Below are positions 10,924-64,000 of a stretch of 64,000 bases of DNA, piece by piece (position 1 is the first letter of the stretch; the number at the start of each line of letters is the position of its first letter). The DNA comes from Octopus sinensis (taxonomy: Eukaryota). Where the stretch lies: assembly GCF_006345805.1 (NCBI RefSeq), contig NC_042999.1, positions 67,890,001-67,954,000 of the forward strand, read 5' to 3'. The notes under the pieces were generated by a model. The model saw nothing but the letters and a program-made list of their open reading frames with translations, had not been told where the DNA came from and made no database searches. A program made the translations under genes and the position numbers.

Positions 10924-11336
10924 GCGAGTTGGCAGAAACGTTAGCACGCCGGGCGGAATGCTTTGCAGTATTTCGTCTGCCGTTACGTTCTGAGTTCAAA
11001 TTCCGCCGAGGTCGACTTTGCCTTTCATCCTTTCGGGGTCGATTACATAAGTACCAGTTACGCACTGAGGGTCGATATAATCGACTTAATCCGTTTGTCT
11101 GTCCTTGTTTGCCCTCTCTGTGTTTAGCCCCTTGTGGGTAGTAAAGAAATAGGTATTTCGTCTGCCGCTACATTCTGAGTTCAAATTCCGCCGAGGTCAA
11201 CTTTGCCTTTCATCCTTTCAGGGTCGATTACATAAGTACCAGTTACGCACTGGGGGTCGATATAATCGACTTAAACCGTTTGTCTGTCCTTGTTTGTCCT
11301 CTCTGTGTTTAGCTCCTTGTGGGTAGTAAAGAAATA
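10924..11336 (+). mobile_element. SINE family B, head-to-tail dimer
   Basis: tRNA-like head (GGCAGAAACGTTAGCACGCC...GAGTTCAAATTCC), CCTTTCATCCTTTCGGGGTCGAT core, 185-bp period, possible TSD GGT(T/A)TATGC. Confidence 0.88.
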
Positions 11337-11821
11337 GGTATATGCTACTATTTATCTTATTGCTCGGGAGCCCAGGTGGAGGGTAAAGTTAAACAGAGGG
11401 GCCTAAGTCTGACAGGGTTAATGGTTTACTCGTGGTCGGTGTTCGTGGAAGTTGATGACTGCTGAAGAAACATCGGCAAGAATGGAATAACGAGATTGAG
11501 TACTTGCATATGGTTTGTGGGAAACGTTTCAGCAGTGACGTAGCTAAAGTCTGTGCTGTCCAAGGCAACCCTTGACGTTTAAGTATCCCTTCTGCGTTCC
11601 CAAGTTCATACAGGCGTTTACAGCAGACCCAAATACACTGCCCCAGTAAAAGCAATCATCGGGGTGGACGCCTTTTCATCCCCTCTCCTAACTACGATAA
11701 TGCGTATCTGCTATTTTTTGCAGGTCAATCAAGCGAGTAGATCAGTGCCCCACAACCTTTTTTTCACTCGCGGCATACTTATATTCTTTTTAGAATTCAG
11801 CGGCACACCTGAACTAAAGGT

Positions 11822-17211: not shown

Positions 17212-17630
17212 TTTCTTATTTCTTTATTGCTCACAAGAGGCTAAACATAGAGGGGACAAACAAGGATAGACAAAGGGATTAAGTCGATTACATCTACCCC
17301 AGTGCGTAACTGGTATTTAATTTATCGACCCCGAAAGGATGAAAGACAAAGTTGACCTCGGCGGAATTTGAACTCAGAACGTAGCGGCAGACGAAATACC
17401 TATTTCTTTACTACCCACAAGGGGCTAAACACAGAAGGGACAAACAAGGACACAAACGGATTAAGTCGATTATATCGACCACAGTGCGTAACTAGTACTT
17501 ATTTAATCGACCCCGAAAGGATAAAAGGCAAAGTCGACCTCGGCGGAATTTGAACTCAGAACGTAACGGCAGACGAAATACGGCTGCGCATTTCGCCCGG
17601 CGTGCTAACGATTCTGCCAGCTCACCACCT
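17212..17630 (-). mobile_element. SINE family B, dimer
   Basis: Reverse complement of the 10924-11336 structure with the same internal junction. Confidence 0.88.
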
Positions 17631-18412: not shown

Positions 18413-18828
18413 GGCGGCGAGTTGGCAGAAACGTTAGCATGCCAGACGAAATGCTTAGCAGTATTTCGTCTGCCGTCACGTTCTGAGTTCAAATTCCGCC
18501 GAGGTCGACTTTGCCTTTCATCCTTTTGGGGTCGATTAAATAAGTACCAGTTACGCACTGGGGTCGATATAATCGACTTAATCCCTTTGTCTGTCCTTGT
18601 TTGTCCCTTCTGTGTTTAGCCCCTTGTGGGTAGTAAAGAAATAGGTATTTCGTCTGCCGTCACGTTCTGAGTTCAAATTCCGCCGAGGTCGACTTTGTTT
18701 TTCATCCTTTCGGGGTCGATAAATTAAGTACCAGTTACGCACTGGGGTCGATATAATCGACTTAACCCGTTTGTCTGTCCTTGTTTGTCCTCTCTGTGTT
18801 TAGCCCCTTGTGGGCAATAAAGAAATAA
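18413..18828 (+). mobile_element. SINE family B, full-head dimer
   Basis: GGCGGCGAGTTGGCAGAAACG head, 184-bp period, AAAGAAATAAGA tail. Confidence 0.9.
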
Positions 18829-21782: not shown

Positions 21783-21809
21783 ACAGGAGTATATATATAT
21801 ATATATATA

Positions 21810-22688
21810 GTTATCCGTAATAATGAAGGGTGAAATTAATTAATTTGGAAAAATTATCAATTACACCAAGTAGTCTTCGGCATGTAAAAGCCTCATTCGA
21901 GGAAAATTTAAGTAATACTAAGCAATAAGGGTTTAGCAACGAGTTGCCTTACCACATACCGAATTTAGAAATAGCAGTCAAAGGGTTATAGCTATTTCTT
22001 CTACTAAAAAGGGAGATCTCAGTAAAAACAGCATTTGGAAGGCAGACACAAACAGGTAAGAAAGAATGAATTGACTGCAATCTATCATACATTTTTTTAG
22101 TTATCCACGGACGTACGTTTCGAAATCAAGTTTTAAGGAAAGCATAAGAATTAAATATTAAATATTAAATAATAAATAATTCTATCTTACCGAAACTTCT
22201 TTTCTCTTCAGCGTAGAATACTATAATCATAAATGATTATATATTGAATTTTGAGATACCAGAAGGCACCAACTCCACTCAGTATCAGAGCGAGCTAGAA
22301 TCCGGATTCTAGCTCGCTCTGATACTGAGTGGAGTTGGTGCCTTCTGGTATCTCAAAATTCAATATATAATCATTTATGATTATAGTATTCTACGCTGAA
22401 GAGAAAAGAAGTTTCGGTAAGATAGAATTATTTATTATTTAATATTTAATATTTAATTCTTATGCTTTCCTTAAAACTTGATTTCGAAACGTACGTCCGT
22501 GGATAACTAAAAAAATGTATGATAGATTGCAGTCAATTCATTCTTTCTTACCTGTTTGTGTCTGCCTTCCAAATGCTGTTTTTACTGAGATCTCCCTTTT
22601 TAGTAGAAGAAATAGCTATAACCCTTTGACTGCTATTTCTAAATTCGGTATGTGGTAAGGCAACTCGTTGCTAAACCCTTATTGCTTA

Positions 22689-22692
<4 letters not shown>
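21810..22692. mobile_element. Fold-back element with perfect 778-bp palindrome (21915-22692), Penelope-like inverted pLTR candidate
   Basis: 389-bp arms, no spacer, axis AGAATCC|GGATTCT at 22303/22304; TA tracts on both sides; hammerhead in each arm. Confidence 0.8.
22390..22503 (+). ncRNA. Type I hammerhead ribozyme with long stem II (mirror copy on minus strand at 22104-22217)
   Basis: Stem I UCUACG/CGUGGA; CUGAAGA 22396-22402; stem II closed by GAAA/UUUC (83 nt); GAAA 22486; stem III AC-GUAC-GU; GUC cleavage triplet ending at 22497. Confidence 0.78.
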
Positions 22693-22721
<29 letters not shown>

Positions 22722-22723
<2 letters not shown>

Positions 22724-22942
22724 GGAGTAAACACATAAATGTGAAGCAAGGTGGAAAAAAAGAGTACTCAAATACCAGTGGTAGAGTAATATGCTTTATT
22801 TAAAGCAGCAGAAAATTCAACAAAATCTGTTACTCTGAGTTTCTCGTTGCCGTTCATCAGACAGTTTTTGTTTGTCTGATGAACGGCAACGAGAAACTCA
22901 GAGTAACAGATTTTGTTGAATTTTCTGCTGCTTTAAATAAAG
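22722..22942. mobile_element. Short fold-back element, 70-bp perfect arms (22794-22863 and 22873-22942), 9-nt spacer
   Basis: Exact inverted repeat flanked by (TA)n; carries a hammerhead motif. Confidence 0.8.
22821..22870 (-). ncRNA. Minimal type I hammerhead ribozyme (partial mirror copy on + at 22873-22916)
   Basis: Minus strand: CAAAAACUGU-CUGAUGA-ACG GCAA CGA-GAAA-CUC A GAG-UA-ACAGAUUUUG; A.A mismatch at the base of stem II. Confidence 0.72.
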
Positions 22943-22989
22943 TATATATATATATATTCAATAACGAATTAATAGCACCTTTACTATTG

Positions 22990-24262: not shown

Positions 24263-25243
24263 TATTGGGTTGGAAAGAGATGGTTCCAAAGTTCTCGTTC
24301 AGGAGATGATAGCCTTGAAAATAAGCCAATGAGTAATAATAAACCAATCAGTTATTTGACATGATGGATTAAATGCTTTGGTTGAACAAAATCCGAGAAC
24401 AAAGGTTCGAAAACTTTCATAAGAACTCCAAACATCTCACACAACTGTTTTTGAATACCTGTAAAAAATTGGAAAAGTCAAGAAAACAGATAGGTTTGTT
24501 CCACATTAACTGAACGAGATTAAAAAAAACAGACGCCTCGAAGTATGCTCCTTATTGCTTTCTCGACTGGAAAAAGACCATGTTTGCATCAAATCATTAA
24601 TTGTGGTGAGAAATGGATAGTCTTTAACAACAGCAGGAAAATAGGACAGTGATTAGATGCAGGAGAATCACTTAAGCACTACCCAGTCCAACCATTGCAC
24701 CCTAAAAAATTAGCGGTCACTGCATGGTAGTCTGCGAAGGGAGTTATCCATTACTCCTTTTTGCAACAAGGAAAACGGTAACAGCAACATCGTATTGCCA
24801 GGAAATTAATCCTATGCATAAGAATTTGAAAAAGAAGCAACCCAGACTAGTAAACAGAGATGACCCAATTTTGTTCCACGACAATGCAAGTCCTCACACT
24901 CTTCAAGCTACGGTCCAAAAGTTGCAAAGCCCCAATTATGAGATTTTGCGACACCCTTTCTATTCCTCTGATATTTCTCCCACTGATCATCACTTATTTA
25001 AGCATTTTCAGCTCTTCATAAGCAATAAAACATTCTTAAATAGAGAAGATGTCATTGAACCATTTGGACAGTTTATCACAGCAAAAGATGAATTTTTTTA
25101 AAGATGGAATATATGACATAGAGAAACGTTGGGAAAATGTCATAAATGCGTGTGTTCTGTTTGATTAAATAAATCAGTTTTCTAACACTTCTGAAACATT
25201 TTATTGTTACCCTTCAAATACATTTCACGTGAAACAACGTAAT
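24263..25243 (+). mobile_element. Decayed mariner transposon
   Basis: CGEKWIVFNN, ILFHDNASPH, HPFYSSDISPTDHHLF; TIR-like TATTGGGTTGG start and CAACGTAATA end. Confidence 0.88.
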
Positions 25244-25664: not shown

Positions 25665-25853
25665 AACGATAAAGTTTAATTTTTGTAACGATGCCTGTTA
25701 TGGTGCAACGTCGGGATCACCAGATGTCACCAATTTGTAACGGTAGAAGTTAATTGTGTAACGGTAATATGAGATGTCTTAACATGCCGTAACTACTTGG
25801 TAGAATTATTAATTATTAATTAATTAATTAATTTTACCCTTTATTATTATTGA

Positions 25854-26236: not shown

Positions 26237-26555
26237 TTGTTTGAGGATCTCTTTCTCAATTTGTTTCCAGTTTGCCTTATGGTAGTTCAAGCTGGAAAGA
26301 TTTTGAGGGTTTCTTGTAGGCTGCATGTCCGTGCTCTCTTTTGGCCCGTACATGGTCAGCTCTATCATGTTGTGATCCGAGAGTAGTGTCGGTGTCACTT
26401 TCACATTATGGATGAGATCCATGTCATTTGTGAAGCAGAGATCCAGTGTGTTACCTGCCCTGGTTGGTTGGAGTATTACCTGCTCCATGTACAGGGTGTT
26501 GATGAGGTTCAGGAGGGACCTCGCCTGTCCTCGTTCACATCTTGTCATTCCTGGG
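26237..26555 (-). repeat. Inverted duplicate of the LINE 5' segment (partner 26565-26883)
   Basis: 319-bp arms, one mismatch seen, 9-nt spacer AGAGAAAGG. Confidence 0.92.
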
Positions 26556-29142
26556 AGAGAAAGGCCCAGGAATGACAAGATGTGAACGAGGACAGGCGAG
26601 GTCCCTCCTGAACCTCATCAACACCATGTACATGGAGCAGGTAATACTCCAACCAACCAGGGCAGGTAACACACTGGATCTCTGCTTCACAAATGACATG
26701 GATCTCATCCATAATGTGAAAGTGACACCGACACTACTCTCGGATCACAACATGATAGAGCTGACCATGTACGGGCCAAAAGAGAGCACGGACATGCAGC
26801 CTACAAGAAACCCTCAAAATCTTTCCAGCTTGAACTACCATAAGGCAAACTGGAAACAAATTGAGAAAGAGATCCTCAAACAAAACTGGCCTAAATGTCT
26901 CTCCTCGCCAGACATCGACGTGAAACTTCAACAATTCATGTCTGTAATGCAAGCCATATGCTACAAATGTGTCCCAGAGAGAAAGGCCACTGTACACAAG
27001 AACAAAATCCCCAGAGAGAGGAAAATTTTAATGAGACGGCGTACGAAATTTTCAAATCGCCTAAACAAACAGATTGAAAGCAGTGAAAAGTCCCGCCTAA
27101 AAATAAAACTGTTAGAAATCGAAAAATGTCTGCAACTCTCCCATGAAAAAGAAAGAGCAGACAAAGAAGCCTGGGCTATAGAAAACATAAAATCTAACCC
27201 CAGAGCTTTCTACAGGTATGCCAAGAAACAGCTACAGTGCACTGTAGAATAGGGCCACTCCTCGAAAAGGATGGCACACTTACAGGAAAACCAATGAGGG
27301 TAAGTGAAATACTGAATGAGCAATTCAAGAGTGTTTTCACTCCACCCCTTGGGCATCTCCAAATCACCAATCCAACTGACTTTTTTACCACTGCAGATAT
27401 AAAATCAGAGGCGGCGACGATAGATTACATCGATATAAAGGAAGACGATGTAACCAAGGCTATAGATGAAATGAAAACAGACTCAGCTGCTGGCCCCGAT
27501 GGATTCCCGGCAATCCTCCTAAAAGCATGTAAGAGAGTCCTAGCAAGACCACTGCAGTTCCTCTTTCAGAGCTTCCTTGCAGCTGGCAAACTTCCAGGAA
27601 AACTGAAGGAAGGTAAAATATGCCCCATTCATAAAGGAGGTAGCAGAGCGGAAGCCAAGAACTATAGACCTATCTCTCTGACCTCACACATCAGCAAGGT
27701 CATGGAACGAATAGTCAGAAGGAAGCTGATCACCTTCCTTGAAGAGAATGACTTGCTGCCCGACACCCAACATGGTTTCCGACCAGGGAGAAGCTGTTTA
27801 ACTCAGCTCCTACAACACTATGACTGGGTGCTGAAACGGCTGCTCACCACTCAAATGTGGAAGTGATATATCTCGACTTTGCAAAGGCCTTTGATAAAGT
27901 CGATCATGGAATGATATGTCACAAACTGCGTGATCTCAACATAGTTGGAAAACTGGGAGAATGGCTTCATGACTTTCTGAAGGATAGAAGTCAGGTGGTA
28001 GTAGCCAATGGGGCCACCTCCATTAACACACAAATAGTGAGCGGTGTTCCGCAGGGCACTGTTCTGGGACCACTACTGTTCATAATGGCCCTCTCAGACA
28101 TGCCCTCAGCCACGCAGAGAGCCACGATCACAAGTTATGCAGATGATACAAAAGTTTCACAGGCAATACAGAACCCTGAGGACACTAAACACCTGCAATG
28201 TGAGCTGGACGAAATATACAAGTGGGCTGAAAAGAATAGCATGCAGTTCAATGCTGGAAAGTTTCAAGCTTTATACTATCAGCATGCAAAACTGAATGCA
28301 ATACCCAATGAATACACTGGACCCGGAGGGATTGCAATCCCAGAGGCACAATCAGTGCGTGACCTGGGTATTCACATGAGTGATGACGCGACCTTTCATG
28401 TACATGTTGCTAAACTGACAATGAAATGTAGACGGCTGGCTGGCTGGATTCTTAGAACCTTTAGAACAAGAGAACAAGAAACCATGATGGTCCTCTGGAA
28501 GACACTTGTCCTAAGCCACTTTGACTATTGCTCTCAGCTATGGTCACCATCCAGTGTCAAGTTGATCACAGAACTTGAGGCGATCCAACGAAGCTACACG
28601 AAGAAGATAGCCTCTATGCAGAATGTAAGCTACTGGGAAAGACTCAAGAGATTAAAATTATATTCCCTGGAGCGTAGGCGGGAAAGATATGCCATAATAT
28701 ACATCTGGAAGATCCTGGAGGGAAGTGTCCTGAACTTTGGCATCGAGAGTTACGCAAATGCCAGAACTGGGCGCCACTGCGTGGTGCCTAGGACTCCAAA
28801 CCTGCCATCAAGATGTAGGACAAGATTCTGTGATAGCCTGGGCTTCCGAGGCCCACAGCTCTTCAATATCCTCCCGAAGAACCTGAGAGACCTGCATGGG
28901 GTGGATACAGATGTCTTTAAAATGAAGCTGGATCTCTTCCTGTCAGGTATCCCAGATGAACCAACTTCACGGCAGGAGGGGCAGATGAGGGCAGCTGCAT
29001 CGAACTCTCTCATGCACCAAATAGCAGTTGCTAGAAAGCCTCCATGAAGTGAAACCAAGTAGCAACACCAAATGGCGGTGCCCCAGCATGGCCACAGCTC
29101 ATAAGCTGAAACTAGAATCAATCAATCAATCAAAAATCAATC
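26556..29142 (+). mobile_element. 5'-truncated CR1-group LINE: ORF2 from the APE C-terminus through RT to stop at 29047, two frameshifts, 3' UTR and (AATC)n tail
   Basis: PTRAGNTLDL..SDH (APE); NYRPISLTS, QHGFRPGRSC, YLDFAKAFD, SGVPQGTVLGP, YADDTK (RT); LYSLERRRER C-terminus; ORFs 26542-27252, 27237-27866, 27857-29047. Confidence 0.95.
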
Positions 29143-34859: not shown

Positions 34860-35392
34860 GCGAGCTAGCAGAATCGTTAACACACCAGGCGAAATGCTTA
34901 GCGGTATTTCGTCTGCCGATACGTTCTGAGTTCAAATTCCGACGAGGTCGACTTTGCCTTTCTTCCTTTCGGGGTCGATTAAATAAGTACCAGTTACGCA
35001 CTGGGATCGACGTATTCGACTTAATCCGTTTGTCTGTCCTTGTTTGTCCTCTCTGTGTTTAGCTCTTTGTGGGTTGTAAAAAATAGGTATTTCGTCTGCC
35101 GCTACGTTCTGAGTTAAAATTCCGACGAGGTCGACTTTGCCTTTCATCCTTTCGGGGTCGATTAAATAAGTACCAGTTACGCACTGGGATCAATATAATC
35201 GACTTAAACCGTTTGTCTGTCCTTGTTTGTCCCCTCTGTGTTTAGCCTCTTGTGGGTAGTAAAGAAATAGGTATTTCGTCTGCCGTTAGGTTCTGAGCTC
35301 AAATTCCGCCTAGGTCGACTTTACTTTTTATCCTTTAGAGATCGATAAAATAAGTTCTAGTTGAATATTTAGATCGTTGTAATCGACTTAAT
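34860..35392 (+). mobile_element. SINE family B, near-trimer
   Basis: Units start at 34904, 35087 and 35271. Confidence 0.88.
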
Positions 35393-35829
35393 TACTCCGG
35401 AGTATGAATATAAAACGAAAGTGCATCCCTCTGCCAACCCATGTCGAACCAGCGTGGCAGAGTAGATTCATCAAAGTATGATCTTAAGCTCAAATTCAGA
35501 GCCTCTTCATCAGACCGTAGGTGGTGTAGGAAACATGCTGAGGTCCTTACCTTGCAGTGGATTGAACATGGGCAGCCCAACTCCAAATCCAAATGTTATG
35601 TTGTATGGTAGTGAATTTTGTAGTGTTATGTAATGTTATATATAGATGTACATGTAATATGTACACATATATATATACACATATATACATGCATAATATA
35701 TCTACCCATACACACATACGCACACACACACACATACATAGGGGCAGGTGTGGCTGTGTGGTAACAAACTACGTTCCAAACACATGGTCCTGGGTTCAGT
35801 CCCACTGTGTGGTGACTTGGCATGTGTAG

Positions 35830-38122
35830 GCACAAACACTCTGTCTTCACATTTGCTGCGTGAGACATGTTTTAATGTTGACGAGCTTGCCGAGTACATA
35901 GCCGACAATGAGCCAAAGCTCCTTCCAGAACACAAGTTCGCTTACAACTCCGTTGTTAATTCAGTCCGGGCCAAAGCTGGGGGAATTTTTTTCCTGGACG
36001 CTCCTGGGGGCACTGGGAAAACTTTTCTCAACAAATTAATATTGGCTGAGATTAGGCGAACACAATGCATTGCCCTAGCTGTGACATCATCTGGAATTGC
36101 GGCTACTTTGTTGCCAGGCGGCAGGACAGCTCACTCCACTTTCAAGCTCCCGCTTGACTTAGCGAAGATTGAGACACCAACTTGCAACATCAGTAACAGC
36201 TCCGATCAGGCAGAAGTCTTCAGACGATGCAAGCTTATCGTTTGGGATGAATGCACGATGGCCCACAGACGTGCTCTTGAGGCACTAGATAGATCTCTCA
36301 GAGACATCAAACACTCTTCAGCTCCCATGGGAGGCATAACACTTCTTCTTTCAGGGGACTTCCGACAAACACTTCCCGTTATTCCTAAATGGACTGCAGC
36401 TGATGCAGTAAGTGCGTGTCTTAAGTCATTCACATTGTGGCCACTGGTTAAGACTCTCAAACTTCACACCAATATGCGTGCTCATATGCGACGTGATATC
36501 ACATCAGCAGCATTTTCTCACACCCTCCTTGCACTTGGCGAAGGCAAAATACCAAGGGATGAAAATGGTAATATTGCCTTCGATTCCATTTGTACCATTG
36601 TTAAAACGCCTTCTGATCTCAGAGATGCAGTGTTCCCAGATCTACAAGCTAATTATCAGAATATGGATTGGATTGGCCAAAGGGCTATCCTGGCCCCGAG
36701 GAATAAAACTGTTCACCATATTAATGATGAAATGCTAAGACTCATTCCTGGGGATGTCTATGTATATAAGTCTATCGATACAACTCCTGACCCAGAGGAT
36801 GTCATCAACTATCCAATAGAGGTACTCAAATCCTTTGAGCCCCCCGGACTACCACCACACATTCTCAAACTTAAAGTTGGTGCCCCTATAATGCTCATTA
36901 GAAATTTGGTTCCCCCCCAAACAATGCAATGGCACACGTTTCATCGTTAAGTCCTTATCTCCCAATCTGATTGAGGCCATCATTATCACAGGGTGCGGTC
37001 GAGGCAACGTTGTGCTCATACCTAGGATGCATCTTTTCCCATCAGGAGCAGACCTACTTTTCATATTTCGGAGGTCCCAGTTCCCAGTAAGGCCATGTTT
37101 CGCAATGTCAATTAACAAAGCGCAGGGTCAAACACTGTCAGTGGAGGGAATACATTTGGGAGAGCCATGTTTCTCTCATGGTCAGCTTTATGTTGCCTGC
37201 TCGCGTGTCGGCAGCAACAGTGATGCTTTCGCATTCGTTCCACAACGAAAAACAAAAAACATTGTGTACAAGGAGGTTTTATAGGATTACGTTTCATCAT
37301 TTTCGAACACGTTAGTATTTCACTTGCATACGACTCTCTTTTATGATGGCATTTACATTTTTAGGCATTTCATGACATTAATTCACACTTAACCAACACC
37401 TGTCCTTCGCTCACCTCTATTTCTATCCATTCATCATCAAACCACCAGCCTCATCTTCTATATCCAACGTACATGACACATCTACCCCCTACATCTACAC
37501 TCTCACTGTTAAAGTTTACATAAGCGACAACACGATCGCAACATACACTTTGGAAACTAAGCAACAGTTCATTTTATACAACAACAAATTTAATCATAAC
37601 GCCCATCAATGAAAACATCTCCACCACTGTGTTGTGATTCATCTATTCAACACCACTACAGTCTTGCCGGTCTGACATATGGTGAGTAGATGCTATTGTT
37701 CTATATTTTATAAATTACCCATATTTACTTACCCATGCTTCATTCCCCTCTTGCCTACATAGGGCATCCATTCTCTTTTAACACAGCAAGGAGTTTTGTA
37801 ACAGCACATCCGCTGCCGTTCGTGGAAAACGAAGAGACCCTATTCACCTGCGAACGTTTTACACCGCCTTCCACGACTATCAAATTCTTACAATTATGAG
37901 AACAATAACATGGCTCTTTTCAAGGCAACCTCGCATTCAATTCTTACACCATTCTACGAGGGGTTAGGAACCCCTTTACACGGTTTTCTATACACTTACA
38001 AATACATTCATTCGCCGTAAACTTATATCAATATTTGCCTGAATAATCATCATAATTCAGTGCAATCATTAACAGTACTTTCAAGCAATTCAGCCCCGAG
38101 CATCGCCGGACAATTCTGCTAG
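35830..38122 (+). mobile_element. 3' part of an autonomous Helitron with PIF1-type SF1 helicase domain (about 35830-37284, frameshifted) and intact 3' end
   Basis: FFLDAPGGTGKT, SSGIAATLL, GRTAHS, IVWDECTM, LSGDFRQTLP, AMSINKAQGQT, HGQLYVACSRV; hairpin CCGAGCATCGCCGG plus CTAG at 38119-38122. Confidence 0.93.
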
Positions 38123-45404: not shown

Positions 45405-46459
45405 AAGGTGGTTGTGCGGTAAGAAGCTTGCTTCCCAGCTACATGGTTCCGGATTCAGTCCCACTGCGTGGAACTTTGGGCAAGTGTCTTCTACTATAGC
45501 CTCGGGCTAACCAAAGCCTTGTGAGTGGATTTGGTGGACGGAAACTGAAAGAAGCCAGTCGTATCTACTACATATGTGGAAAATCGGTGTGTGTTTGTTT
45601 GAGGCGTTGTTAGCTAACCCCTCCTACATCGTTTTATTGATTTTGATGAAACTTGACACTTGAGTAGAACTCATGTTTGGAAACCTCGTGACATACTTAG
45701 ATTGAAAAAAATCGATAATACGGCCCCAGGAAGGGACGTTTATATATCCATTATATAACTATGTTTTAATAAACACCCAAGGGAAATAACCCATTTCATT
45801 GTTTTCATACATATATATTACATTCATATATTACCTTTAATAAATTAGCCTTCATAATGTTCACCTTTAAAACATACAAGTCAATTGATACTATGCTCCA
45901 CACCAATGATGCTGTACATTACCCCGTTGAATTCCTCAGTAGCCTTGCACCTTCAGGTCTACTTAAAGTTTGGAGCCCCAGTTATGCTTTTAAGAAGCCT
46001 CGATCCTCCAAAGTTATGCAATGGCACAAGACTTATTAAAACATTGATGCACACTTTGGTGGAAGCAACAATACTGACTGGGAAAGCAAGTGATGAAGAT
46101 GTTTTCATTCAAAAGATTCCTCTGATTCCTTCCGACACACTAATTGATTTTAAAAGGCTACAATTCCCACTGAGATTAAGCTTTGCAATGAGCATCAACA
46201 AAGCACAGAGTCAGACATTGGAAGAACCTCTGACAATCTTTTTTCACCAACCTCCGACAATCTTTTTCACCAACCTCCGTAAACCTCTCTCGCCAACCTC
46301 CAACAATCTCTCCCTCCTCCAGATGACAGTTTCTGTACGTTTGCATGACGGAAAATGCACCTTTTGTGGCAATTATAACGAAATTGCTTTCTTATATCAG
46401 AGTAATAAGGCGTTTCAATAGAACATCTTTACCCCCGGGAATTACCGGGTTCACCAGTA

Positions 46460-50574: not shown

Positions 50575-50805
50575 AACAAAATACAGCAGGCACAAACAAC
50601 ATGCATAGGAGATCTAACTATATCTAGCGGGACATACCCTTCTTTATGCAAGTACCTGATGTGACACAAACTGCACAGATTGATGCAACACGATTAGATG
50701 CACAAGATCTTACGCATAAAGGACAGATGCAGGGTGGGTCGAAACGATCGTCGTGATGAATAAAGACTAGTGCTAAATCTATCTTCCGTTTCCTTCATCA
50801 ATTTT
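50575..50805 (+). mobile_element. (TA)n-flanked element with degenerate hammerhead (50654-50758) followed by AATAAA
   Basis: CUGAUGU 50656, stem II GAC...GUC (78 nt), GAAA 50741, stem III AC-GAUC-GU, GUC triplet; stem I weak. Confidence 0.55.
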
Positions 50806-63435: not shown

Positions 63436-64000
63436 ATATATATATATATATATATATATAGTACATCGACTCTTCTTTCATTTTCCTTCTACTAAATCCA
63501 CTCGCAGCTTTGTCGGCCTGAGGGCTATAATAAAAGACACTTGTCACGGCCACAACACGTAGGACCTGACCTTGAAACCATGTGGTTGAGAAAGAGACTT
63601 CTTGCCAGACAGCCTGTACCAATAGAAAAATATGGGACGTTTCACGAATTTGTGTGCCGTCCCTGTGCAGTGGTCATGCTGGTCTTCTCTGCATCGTTTA
63701 ATCTTTAGTACGTTGCTGAAGAAAAAAAAATGCACATTGGACAATGCAATCCAGAAATTTAGAATTTTAGTTGTGGTTTTCTGAAGTCGAGTTAAACTGG
63801 AATTAACCAACAACAGTAACAACAGGCCTAGTGTGTATAACAATCTCTCAATGATATTACTAACTTAAGCAGCTACTGAGTCTTATTTGTAAACCTTCAG
63901 CAAAGTTGGGTCGTGATTGGCAGGGATGGAGCGTCTTTCAACAAAAGTCTTCTGGATTAATGCTCACCTGGGGGTTAACAAACAAAAATAGCAGCATTTT

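What the first reader, a model, noticed from the sequence alone, without database searches (positions are those of the whole stretch)
22390..22503. Hammerhead with fully canonical core but an 83-nt extended stem II
All core residues are intact (CUGAAGA, G-C closing pair, GAAA, GUC) and stem I has 6 bp. Stem II is a long AU-rich irregular hairpin (GAAA/UUUC, AAGUUU/AAACUU, AGAAUUA/UAAUUCU), whereas stem III has only 2 bp around a palindromic GUAC loop. Descriptor searches that cap stem II length would miss it. The motif at 50656-50752 has a similarly long stem II, which hints at a structural subclass.
Basis: partly seen in the sequence, partly recalled or inferred. Interest (0 to 1): 0.72.

Follow-up and report, generated by a model that had tools for sequence, protein, structure and literature searches.

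The report
Long-armed hammerhead in tandem jumping repeat
This is an intact hammerhead (self-cutting RNA) motif with one unusually long side arm inside a 607-base protein-free repeat present over a thousand times in this animal genome; it likely cuts when two copies pair, is likely copied by Penelope-type retrotransposon enzymes, and is a variant of a known kind of element.

Summary
In detail: intact type I core, 6-bp stem I, 83-nt stem II, palindromic stem III, with a mirror copy on the other strand. The motif sits in a young 607-bp non-coding tandem unit (1,200 exact matches of a 27-mer) inserted in (TA)n, often as two back-to-back arms with two fixed 3' ends: Penelope-like signatures of a non-LTR retrozyme. 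Long stem II is the norm here: 17,611 of 18,776 pattern matches have 27-112 nt (controls about 1%). Length is labile: 52-83 nt in this family, the last 14 nt from 7-nt duplications; the base covaries. Stem III is palindromic in 35 of 42 loci (8 different palindromes), pointing to dimer cleavage. 5' ends of copies pile up within 25 nt 3' of the predicted cut (11 of 51 insertions; three arms exactly there), an indirect footprint of cleavage. No bench test, no mobilising element identified, no RNA holder on record. The second motif (50656) has a long stem II but A9U. New variant of a known kind; this scan saw such elements before on other DNA.

The parts
21805..22304 (-). Left arm of the insertion: unit positions 413-607 then 1-305 (position 1 = first base after the predicted cut); ends at the distal fixed end
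22303..22692 (+). Right arm: unit positions 413-607 then 1-195; ends at the proximal fixed end
21790..21809 (.). (TA)n target, left
22690..22721 (.). (TA)n target, right
22390..22395 (+). Stem I, 5' strand (predicted extension 22384-22387 pairs with 22506-22509 beyond a 2x2 internal loop)
22396..22402 (+). Core CUGAAGA (C3-A9; G5 = 22398)
22403..22485 (+). Stem II, 83 nt: 4-bp base (22403-06/22482-85), 2x2 internal loop, 6-bp helix, weaker AU-rich apical part
22429..22457 (+). 7-nt repeat (TATTTAA x4.1) at the tip of stem II; source of the 69/76/83-nt length series
22486..22497 (+). GAAA, palindromic stem III/loop (ACGUACGU 22489-22496) and C17; predicted cut between 22497 and 22498
22498..22503 (+). 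Stem I, 3' strand
22104..22217 (-). Identical mirror copy of the hammerhead on the left arm

Best explanation
The motif is a type I hammerhead inside a 607-bp protein-free tandem repeat that inserts into (TA)n; it is predicted to cut after C22497 when two copies pair through the palindromic stem III, its long stem II is likely a tolerated outgrowth on a canonical 4-bp base, and the RNA is likely copied into DNA by a Penelope-like (PLE) reverse transcriptase/endonuclease supplied in trans. Shown from sequence: core, stems, tandem arrays, TA targets, two fixed 3' ends, two-armed insertions, 5' ends piling up behind the cut site. Inferred: cleavage itself, dimer pairing, a circular or multimeric template, and the mobilising enzyme. 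In this model the enzyme nicks (TA)n, starts reverse transcription at two internal sites (about 195-204 and 290-310 nt 3' of the cut), one from each DNA end, reads through uncut or re-ligated ribozymes and stops at a cut 5' end or earlier.
For: Copies 97-100% alike in 607-bp head-to-tail arrays, no ORF over 58 codons. 1,200 exact matches of a 27-mer, control 0. 24 of 28 two-armed insertions have one arm at each fixed end; 20 of 23 one-armed ones end at the proximal end; two internal start sites and extension of both strands are reported for a purified PLE protein (PMC11167929, part 1 of 4 and passages). Named structure: 96% of 505 cells paired, 8 of 23 pairs with changes on both sides, slid controls 19-44% paired. 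Core intact in 104 of 111 fully covered copies; in 28 of 30 loci of an older subfamily GUC follows although the pattern did not ask for it. Stem III palindromic in 35 of 42 loci, 8 different palindromes; intramolecular stem III has probability 0.03-0.04, the intermolecular 8-bp duplex -9.8 kcal/mol. 5' ends: 15 arms in 11 of 51 insertions at unit positions 1-25, none at 26-64, 3 arms in 2 insertions at 568-607 (per-insertion binomial p 9e-6); exactly at position 1 in L228 and both arms of L229. Insertion-private variants present in every unit in 11 of 27 insertions, 9 of 9 units in L143.
Against: No cleavage assay. The 1-25 window was chosen after seeing the data, and a larger pile-up at positions 88-117 (22 arms) has no ribozyme, so stalling at structure could make both. 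55 of 70 passes read through the cut site. 65 of 89 private variants are in only some units. No coding partner: two Neptune-type PLE families here carry short variant hammerheads and share no sequence with the unit; none of 20 short-stem loci showed PLE coding sequence. For a tested PLE, cleavage was not needed for insertion in vitro and no RNA reads began at the cut site (PMC11167929 passage). Loci for the alignment were picked by a core-containing pattern, so core conservation there is by construction, and related sequences inflate covariation counts.
Confidence: 0.8

Rival explanations
1. The long stem II is a selected functional module: the internal loop 4 bp from the core replaces terminal loop 2 and docks on the stem I internal loop, and the extension serves as a protein or packaging handle, defining a real structural subclass.
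For: Long stem II in many diverged families, folding better than shuffles (z<-2 in 33 of 42 loci). In this family the A just 5' of the 4-bp base is invariant in 22 of 22 and position 1.7 is U in 18 of 22; the U1.7-loop 2 A contact is recalled, not retrieved (one search found nothing on it). Helices beyond the base show changes on both sides.
Against: Length 52-83 nt within the family, tip grown by 7-nt duplications; relatives of the 50656 family with the same base have 15-18 nt; other families lack the loop A or have 5-9 continuous pairs; position 1.7 is C in 4 of 22.
Confidence: 0.25
2. The ribozyme is vestigial or nearly silent: the fold is inherited from a PLE pseudo-LTR, the element spreads from uncut multimeric transcripts, and 5' ends near position 1 reflect reverse-transcriptase stalling at the stable stems.
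For: Most passes read through (55 of 70) and a second pile-up exists without a ribozyme; PLE hammerheads show low activity in vitro (PMC4209133 part 2); the 50656 family has CUGAnGA in only 2 of 30 copies and mostly A9U.
Against: Three arms stop exactly at position 1; the predicted paired stretch at 26-64 has no 5' ends; subfamilies 75-82% alike over most of the unit keep core, stems and palindrome with compensatory changes.
Confidence: 0.15
3. Stem II forms a long-range pairing (GGUAAGA 22416-22422 with UCUUACC 22546-22552), a pseudoknot or switch, or holds a splice donor that removes half the core.
For: The seven pairs are compatible in 19-21 of 21 sequences; 1 of 30 shuffles as strong for the window's variant.
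Against: Nearly only one-sided changes; no such pairing stands out in the other families tested; pair probability 0 in both contexts (the method cannot form pseudoknots); it competes with the local helix; no GT..AG joint in the contigs laid.
Confidence: 0.07
4. Chance motif, or an assembly fold-back artefact.
For: The two arms are 100% complementary with no spacer; whole-motif fold z only -1.62.
Against: 0 of 40 resamplings give the motif; pattern counts exceed controls 35- to 100-fold; the arms end at the two family-wide fixed ends, as in 24 of 28 two-armed insertions.
Confidence: 0.02

Closest known systems
Metazoan non-LTR retrozymes (PMC7229834: passages and parts 2-3 of 6 read, supplement not readable; bioRxiv 10.64898/2026.07.22.740005: abstract, methods, results part 1 of 2 read)
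   Same: Non-coding tandem units, low GC, one type I hammerhead per unit, short palindromic helix III, co-occurring PLEs; 607 bp lies inside the 51-972 bp range of the 2026 preprint.
   Different: Stem II of 52-83 nt (44-100 in other families here) instead of about 4 bp plus a short loop; longer than the 170-400 nt circles shown in coral, mussel and axolotl; circular RNA not shown here; two-armed insertions with two fixed ends not seen in the parts read.
Hammerheads in PLE pseudo-LTRs (PMC4209133: parts 1-2 of 4 and supplement passages; PMC8557442: passages, section 11, supplement part 2 of 59)
   Same: Palindromic helix III, G10.1-C11.1, AU-rich flanks; (TA)n targets, partial tandems, inverted 5'-truncated copy, two 3' ends.
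   Different: No ORF; 3' ends about 100 nt apart rather than 30-40; helix II there mostly 3-8 bp. A longer one is on record: PLE-X1_sMoe, 9 bp around a 35-nt loop, marked as deviating (File S2).
Dimer-cleaving type I hammerheads of newt satellite 2 and ASBVd (via PMC6155905 passages and PMC3088659 Fig. S8 legend)
   Same: Weak helix III that two copies can extend through a palindrome.
   Different: Long stem II; dispersed by retrotransposition into (TA)n.
Non-circularly permuted hammerheads, types SGC/CSG/GCS (PMC10085705 passages)
   Same: Same core letters.
   Different: Here the order is the ordinary type I (CGS) order.

Membership tests
Type I hammerhead ribozyme | Core CUGAnGA, GAAA, NUH in type I order | tested here: met
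   intact in 104 of 111 copies
Type I hammerhead ribozyme | Stems I-III, with covariation | tested here: met
   stem I 3 of 6, basal stem II 1 of 4, next helix 3 of 5 pairs change on both sides; the 2 stem III pairs never vary
Type I hammerhead ribozyme | Loop 1-loop 2 tertiary contact | tested here: inconclusive
   internal loops at 6 bp and 4 bp from the core; loop A 22 of 22, U1.7 18 of 22; contact rule recalled
Type I hammerhead ribozyme | Site-specific self-cleavage | not testable with these tools
   indirect only: 5'-end pile-up
Non-LTR retrozyme | Tandem non-coding units each with a type I hammerhead | tested here: met
   arrays up to 9 units, no ORF over 58 codons
Non-LTR retrozyme | Palindromic short helix III allowing dimers | tested here: met
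Non-LTR retrozyme | Self-paired monomer accumulating as circular RNA | not testable with these tools
   predicted circle is largely paired and keeps stems I and II; only contigs were available
Non-LTR retrozyme | Homology to the pseudo-LTR of a coding PLE (2026 preprint) | tested here: inconclusive
   none with the 30 GIY-YIG loci fetched of 149 matches or the young Neptune-type family; other PLE clades not searched
PLE-mobilised element | (TA)n target, partial tandems, inverted 5'-truncated arm, two 3' ends | tested here: met
Autonomous PLE | ORF with RT and GIY-YIG | tested here: not met
Non-circularly permuted hammerhead | Scrambled order of core blocks | tested here: not met
   type I order with covarying stem I

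The most novel reading that the evidence does not exclude
This genome's dominant hammerhead class, over 17,000 motifs invisible to standard descriptors, replaces terminal loop 2 by an internal loop that keeps the loop 1 contact and carries a 40-100-nt appended arm used as a functional handle; these ribozymes cut in vivo as dimers, and the ends of genomic copies record both the cut and two-ended copying of one RNA circle by a Penelope-type enzyme.
Probability: 0.22. Interest if true: 0.68.

Novelty: new variant of a known kind. Interest (0 to 1): 0.42.

Why it matters
Hammerhead censuses that cap stem II at about 24 nt would miss most such motifs in this genome (17,611 of 18,776 matches to one pattern). 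The 5' ends of genomic copies give an indirect handle on an open question, whether hammerheads of PLE-mobilised RNAs cut in living cells, and the natural length series (52, 59, 60, 69, 76, 83 nt) is a ready test of how far stem II can grow. The element class itself is known.

Tried and rejected
Rfam gave no hammerhead among the rows shown. Expression: no RNA holder listed as such; 7 of the 14 runs guessed to be RNA and one of unknown kind were laid; they are contigs, cover the motif and show 7- and 14-nt deletions at the tip, but cannot show strand, ends or level, so they are not used for or against expression. Distal pairing or pseudoknot and a splice reading: not supported; the distal probabilities were off by one base and were redone. 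Mobilising partner: GIY-YIG search, 3' regions, a Neptune-type element beside the array in L146 (adjacency in one TA tract, no homology), 20 short-stem loci: none links to the unit. A long-stem motif downstream of the GIY-YIG fragment in L108 lies beyond the point where L108 and its relative L106 part, so I did not count it as part of that PLE. The 2017 paper on dimer-cleaving small PLE hammerheads was not obtained; it and the unreadable supplement of PMC7229834 and file 1 of PMC4209133 may hold long-stem examples.

Full report
Observation. The strict motif occurs twice in the window, once per strand, and in 0 of 40 Markov resamplings. The two occurrences are one event: 21915-22692 is a perfect 389-bp inverted repeat without spacer, flanked by (TA)n. 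The whole 114-nt fold is only mildly better than shuffles (z -1.62); stem II alone gives z -3.2. Rfam shows no hammerhead among 150 of 208 rows listed.

The element. A search of the window's genome (G000, 2.72 Gb; its repeats look octopus-like, which is recalled, not tested) gave 1,328 first-look candidates, 40 scored, 99-100% alike. They form head-to-tail arrays of a 607-bp unit without an ORF over 58 codons. A 27-mer from the unit has 1,200 exact matches, control 0. I fetched the insertions for the 99 matches listed on contig C1 (52 loci) and mapped their arms. From 90 non-edge 5' ends I dropped 11: five from two duplicate loci, three hits under 90% identity, two 29-39-nt pieces and one internal deletion junction; one array whose 5' end ran off the locus was left out. 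That leaves 79 arms in 51 insertions. 3' ends fall at unit positions 185-206 or 285-312 and run into (TA)n; 24 of 28 two-armed insertions have one of each and 20 of 23 one-armed ones the first. The window copy fits (305 and 195). Partial tandems, an inverted truncated arm, a tail and TA targets are described for PLEs (PMC8557442 passages), and two internal start sites with extension of both target strands for a purified PLE protein (PMC11167929).

Stem II. The pattern CTGANGAG-gap-CGAAACNNNNGTH gives 1,165 matches with stem II 4-26 nt (control 33), 10,032 with 27-56 nt (control 101) and 7,579 with 57-112 nt (control 84). The pattern demands G10.1-C11.1 and a 6-nt stem III insert, so minimal forms are not counted, and a core may fall in more than one bin. 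Among the first 30 and first 12 loci of the two long bins, stem II folds as a hairpin better than shuffles in 33 of 42 (z<-2), stem III is a perfect palindrome in 35 of 42 with 8 different sequences (1 in 16 expected per locus), and N7 takes all four letters; several of the 42 are copies of one family. Within the finding's family stem II is 52, 59, 60, 69, 76 or 83 nt; the last two steps are duplications of a 7-nt repeat at the tip. Stem I, the 4-bp base and the next helix show changes on both sides; the apical helix mostly one-sided ones. Sequences sharing the flanks and stem base of the 50656 family have stem II of 15-18 nt against 78 nt there. So the base is kept and the arm is labile. The invariant loop A (22 of 22) and U1.7 (18 of 22) sit where a loop 1-loop 2 contact would be (recalled); other families do not share this.

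Second motif. Its family is old (80-87% identity). Of 30 loci 19 read CUGAUGU, 2 have CUGAnGA and 9 carry further changes. A9U is reported to slow cleavage at least 20-fold in one construct yet occurs in an active natural ribozyme (PMC10085705 passage). It supports recurrence of long stems, not a fully canonical subclass.

Is it cut? 15 arms in 11 insertions have their 5' end 1-25 nt after the predicted cut, none at 26-64, and 3 arms in 2 insertions in the 40 nt before it (p 9e-6 per insertion against these flanks, 5e-5 against a wide background; window chosen after inspection). L228 and both arms of L229 start exactly at the cut. Against this: 22 arms end at 88-117 where no ribozyme lies, and 55 of 70 passes read through the site. 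Read-through fits uncut multimers or a re-ligated circle. Private variants shared by all units occur in 11 of 27 insertions that have any (9 of 9 units in L143; both arms in the window), while 65 of 89 private variants are in some units only; one of the 11 (L144, 11 variants) is simply a lone member of another subfamily. This fits one template per insertion but does not separate a circle from a homogeneous source array.

Partner. The genome holds Neptune-type PLEs with RT and GIY-YIG and open frames up to 781 codons and more, one family with copies 99-100% alike, TA targets and two 3' ends 45 nt apart. Their hammerheads are short variants and share no sequence with the unit, so the mobiliser is not identified.

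Comparison and novelty. It works like, and meets the sequence-level tests of, a metazoan non-LTR retrozyme (PMC7229834; 2026 preprint). The long stem II as a prevailing genomic form was not found in print in my searches, where 'long helix II' meant 6 bp (PMC13725137 passages); one 53-nt case is in a supplement, and unread supplements and a paper not held may have more. Earlier notes of this scan describe the same kind of element, one probably this family; they are not independent support. Verdict: real, new variant of a known kind, interest 0.42.

Noticed in passing
window 22789-22947: A second two-armed palindrome in a TA tract with a short hammerhead (core from 22876, predicted cut after 22905) whose stem III and 3' flank closely match the Hydra-type pattern in File S2 of PMC8557442.
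   Followed up: no
unit positions 88-117 (window 22585-22614): Largest pile-up of arm 5' ends (22 of 79 arms), often both arms together; a transcription start, second processing site or stall; unexplained.
   Followed up: partly
window 50576-50793: Old family (758 candidates) whose long-stem hammerhead mostly has A9U; short-stem relatives with intact core at L271-L276 and L282.
   Followed up: partly
L107, L109, L110, L119, L122-L129, L131, L132 (3' of GIY-YIG): Neptune-type PLEs carry a hammerhead-like motif with the U3-A8 core swap, 16-23-nt stem II and a CAUG palindrome.
   Followed up: partly
L254 about 2500-2550, family: Young Neptune-type PLE in 4.27-kb tandems with a variant core reading CCGAAGA and two fixed 3' ends 45 nt apart.
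   Followed up: partly
window 22416-22421 and 22547-22554: Conserved GGUAAG (splice-donor-like) in stem II and a complementary CUUACCUG downstream; no splice joint seen in contigs.
   Followed up: yes
window 25779-25849: Fragment 80% like unit positions 222-292, next to the end of another TA-inserted element.
   Followed up: no
window 63626-63730 (-): U6 snRNA match, 64 bits, with changes in conserved parts; probably a pseudogene.
   Followed up: no
window 26506-29047, 35742-37284, 45858-46421, 24706-25101: Broken LINE-like RT/endonuclease frames, Helitron-like helicase pieces and a mariner-like piece, judged by eye from translations.
   Followed up: no
window 10968-11341, 17217-17581, 18461-18827, 34903-35391: Dispersed 182-185-bp SINE-like units in short tandems.
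   Followed up: no
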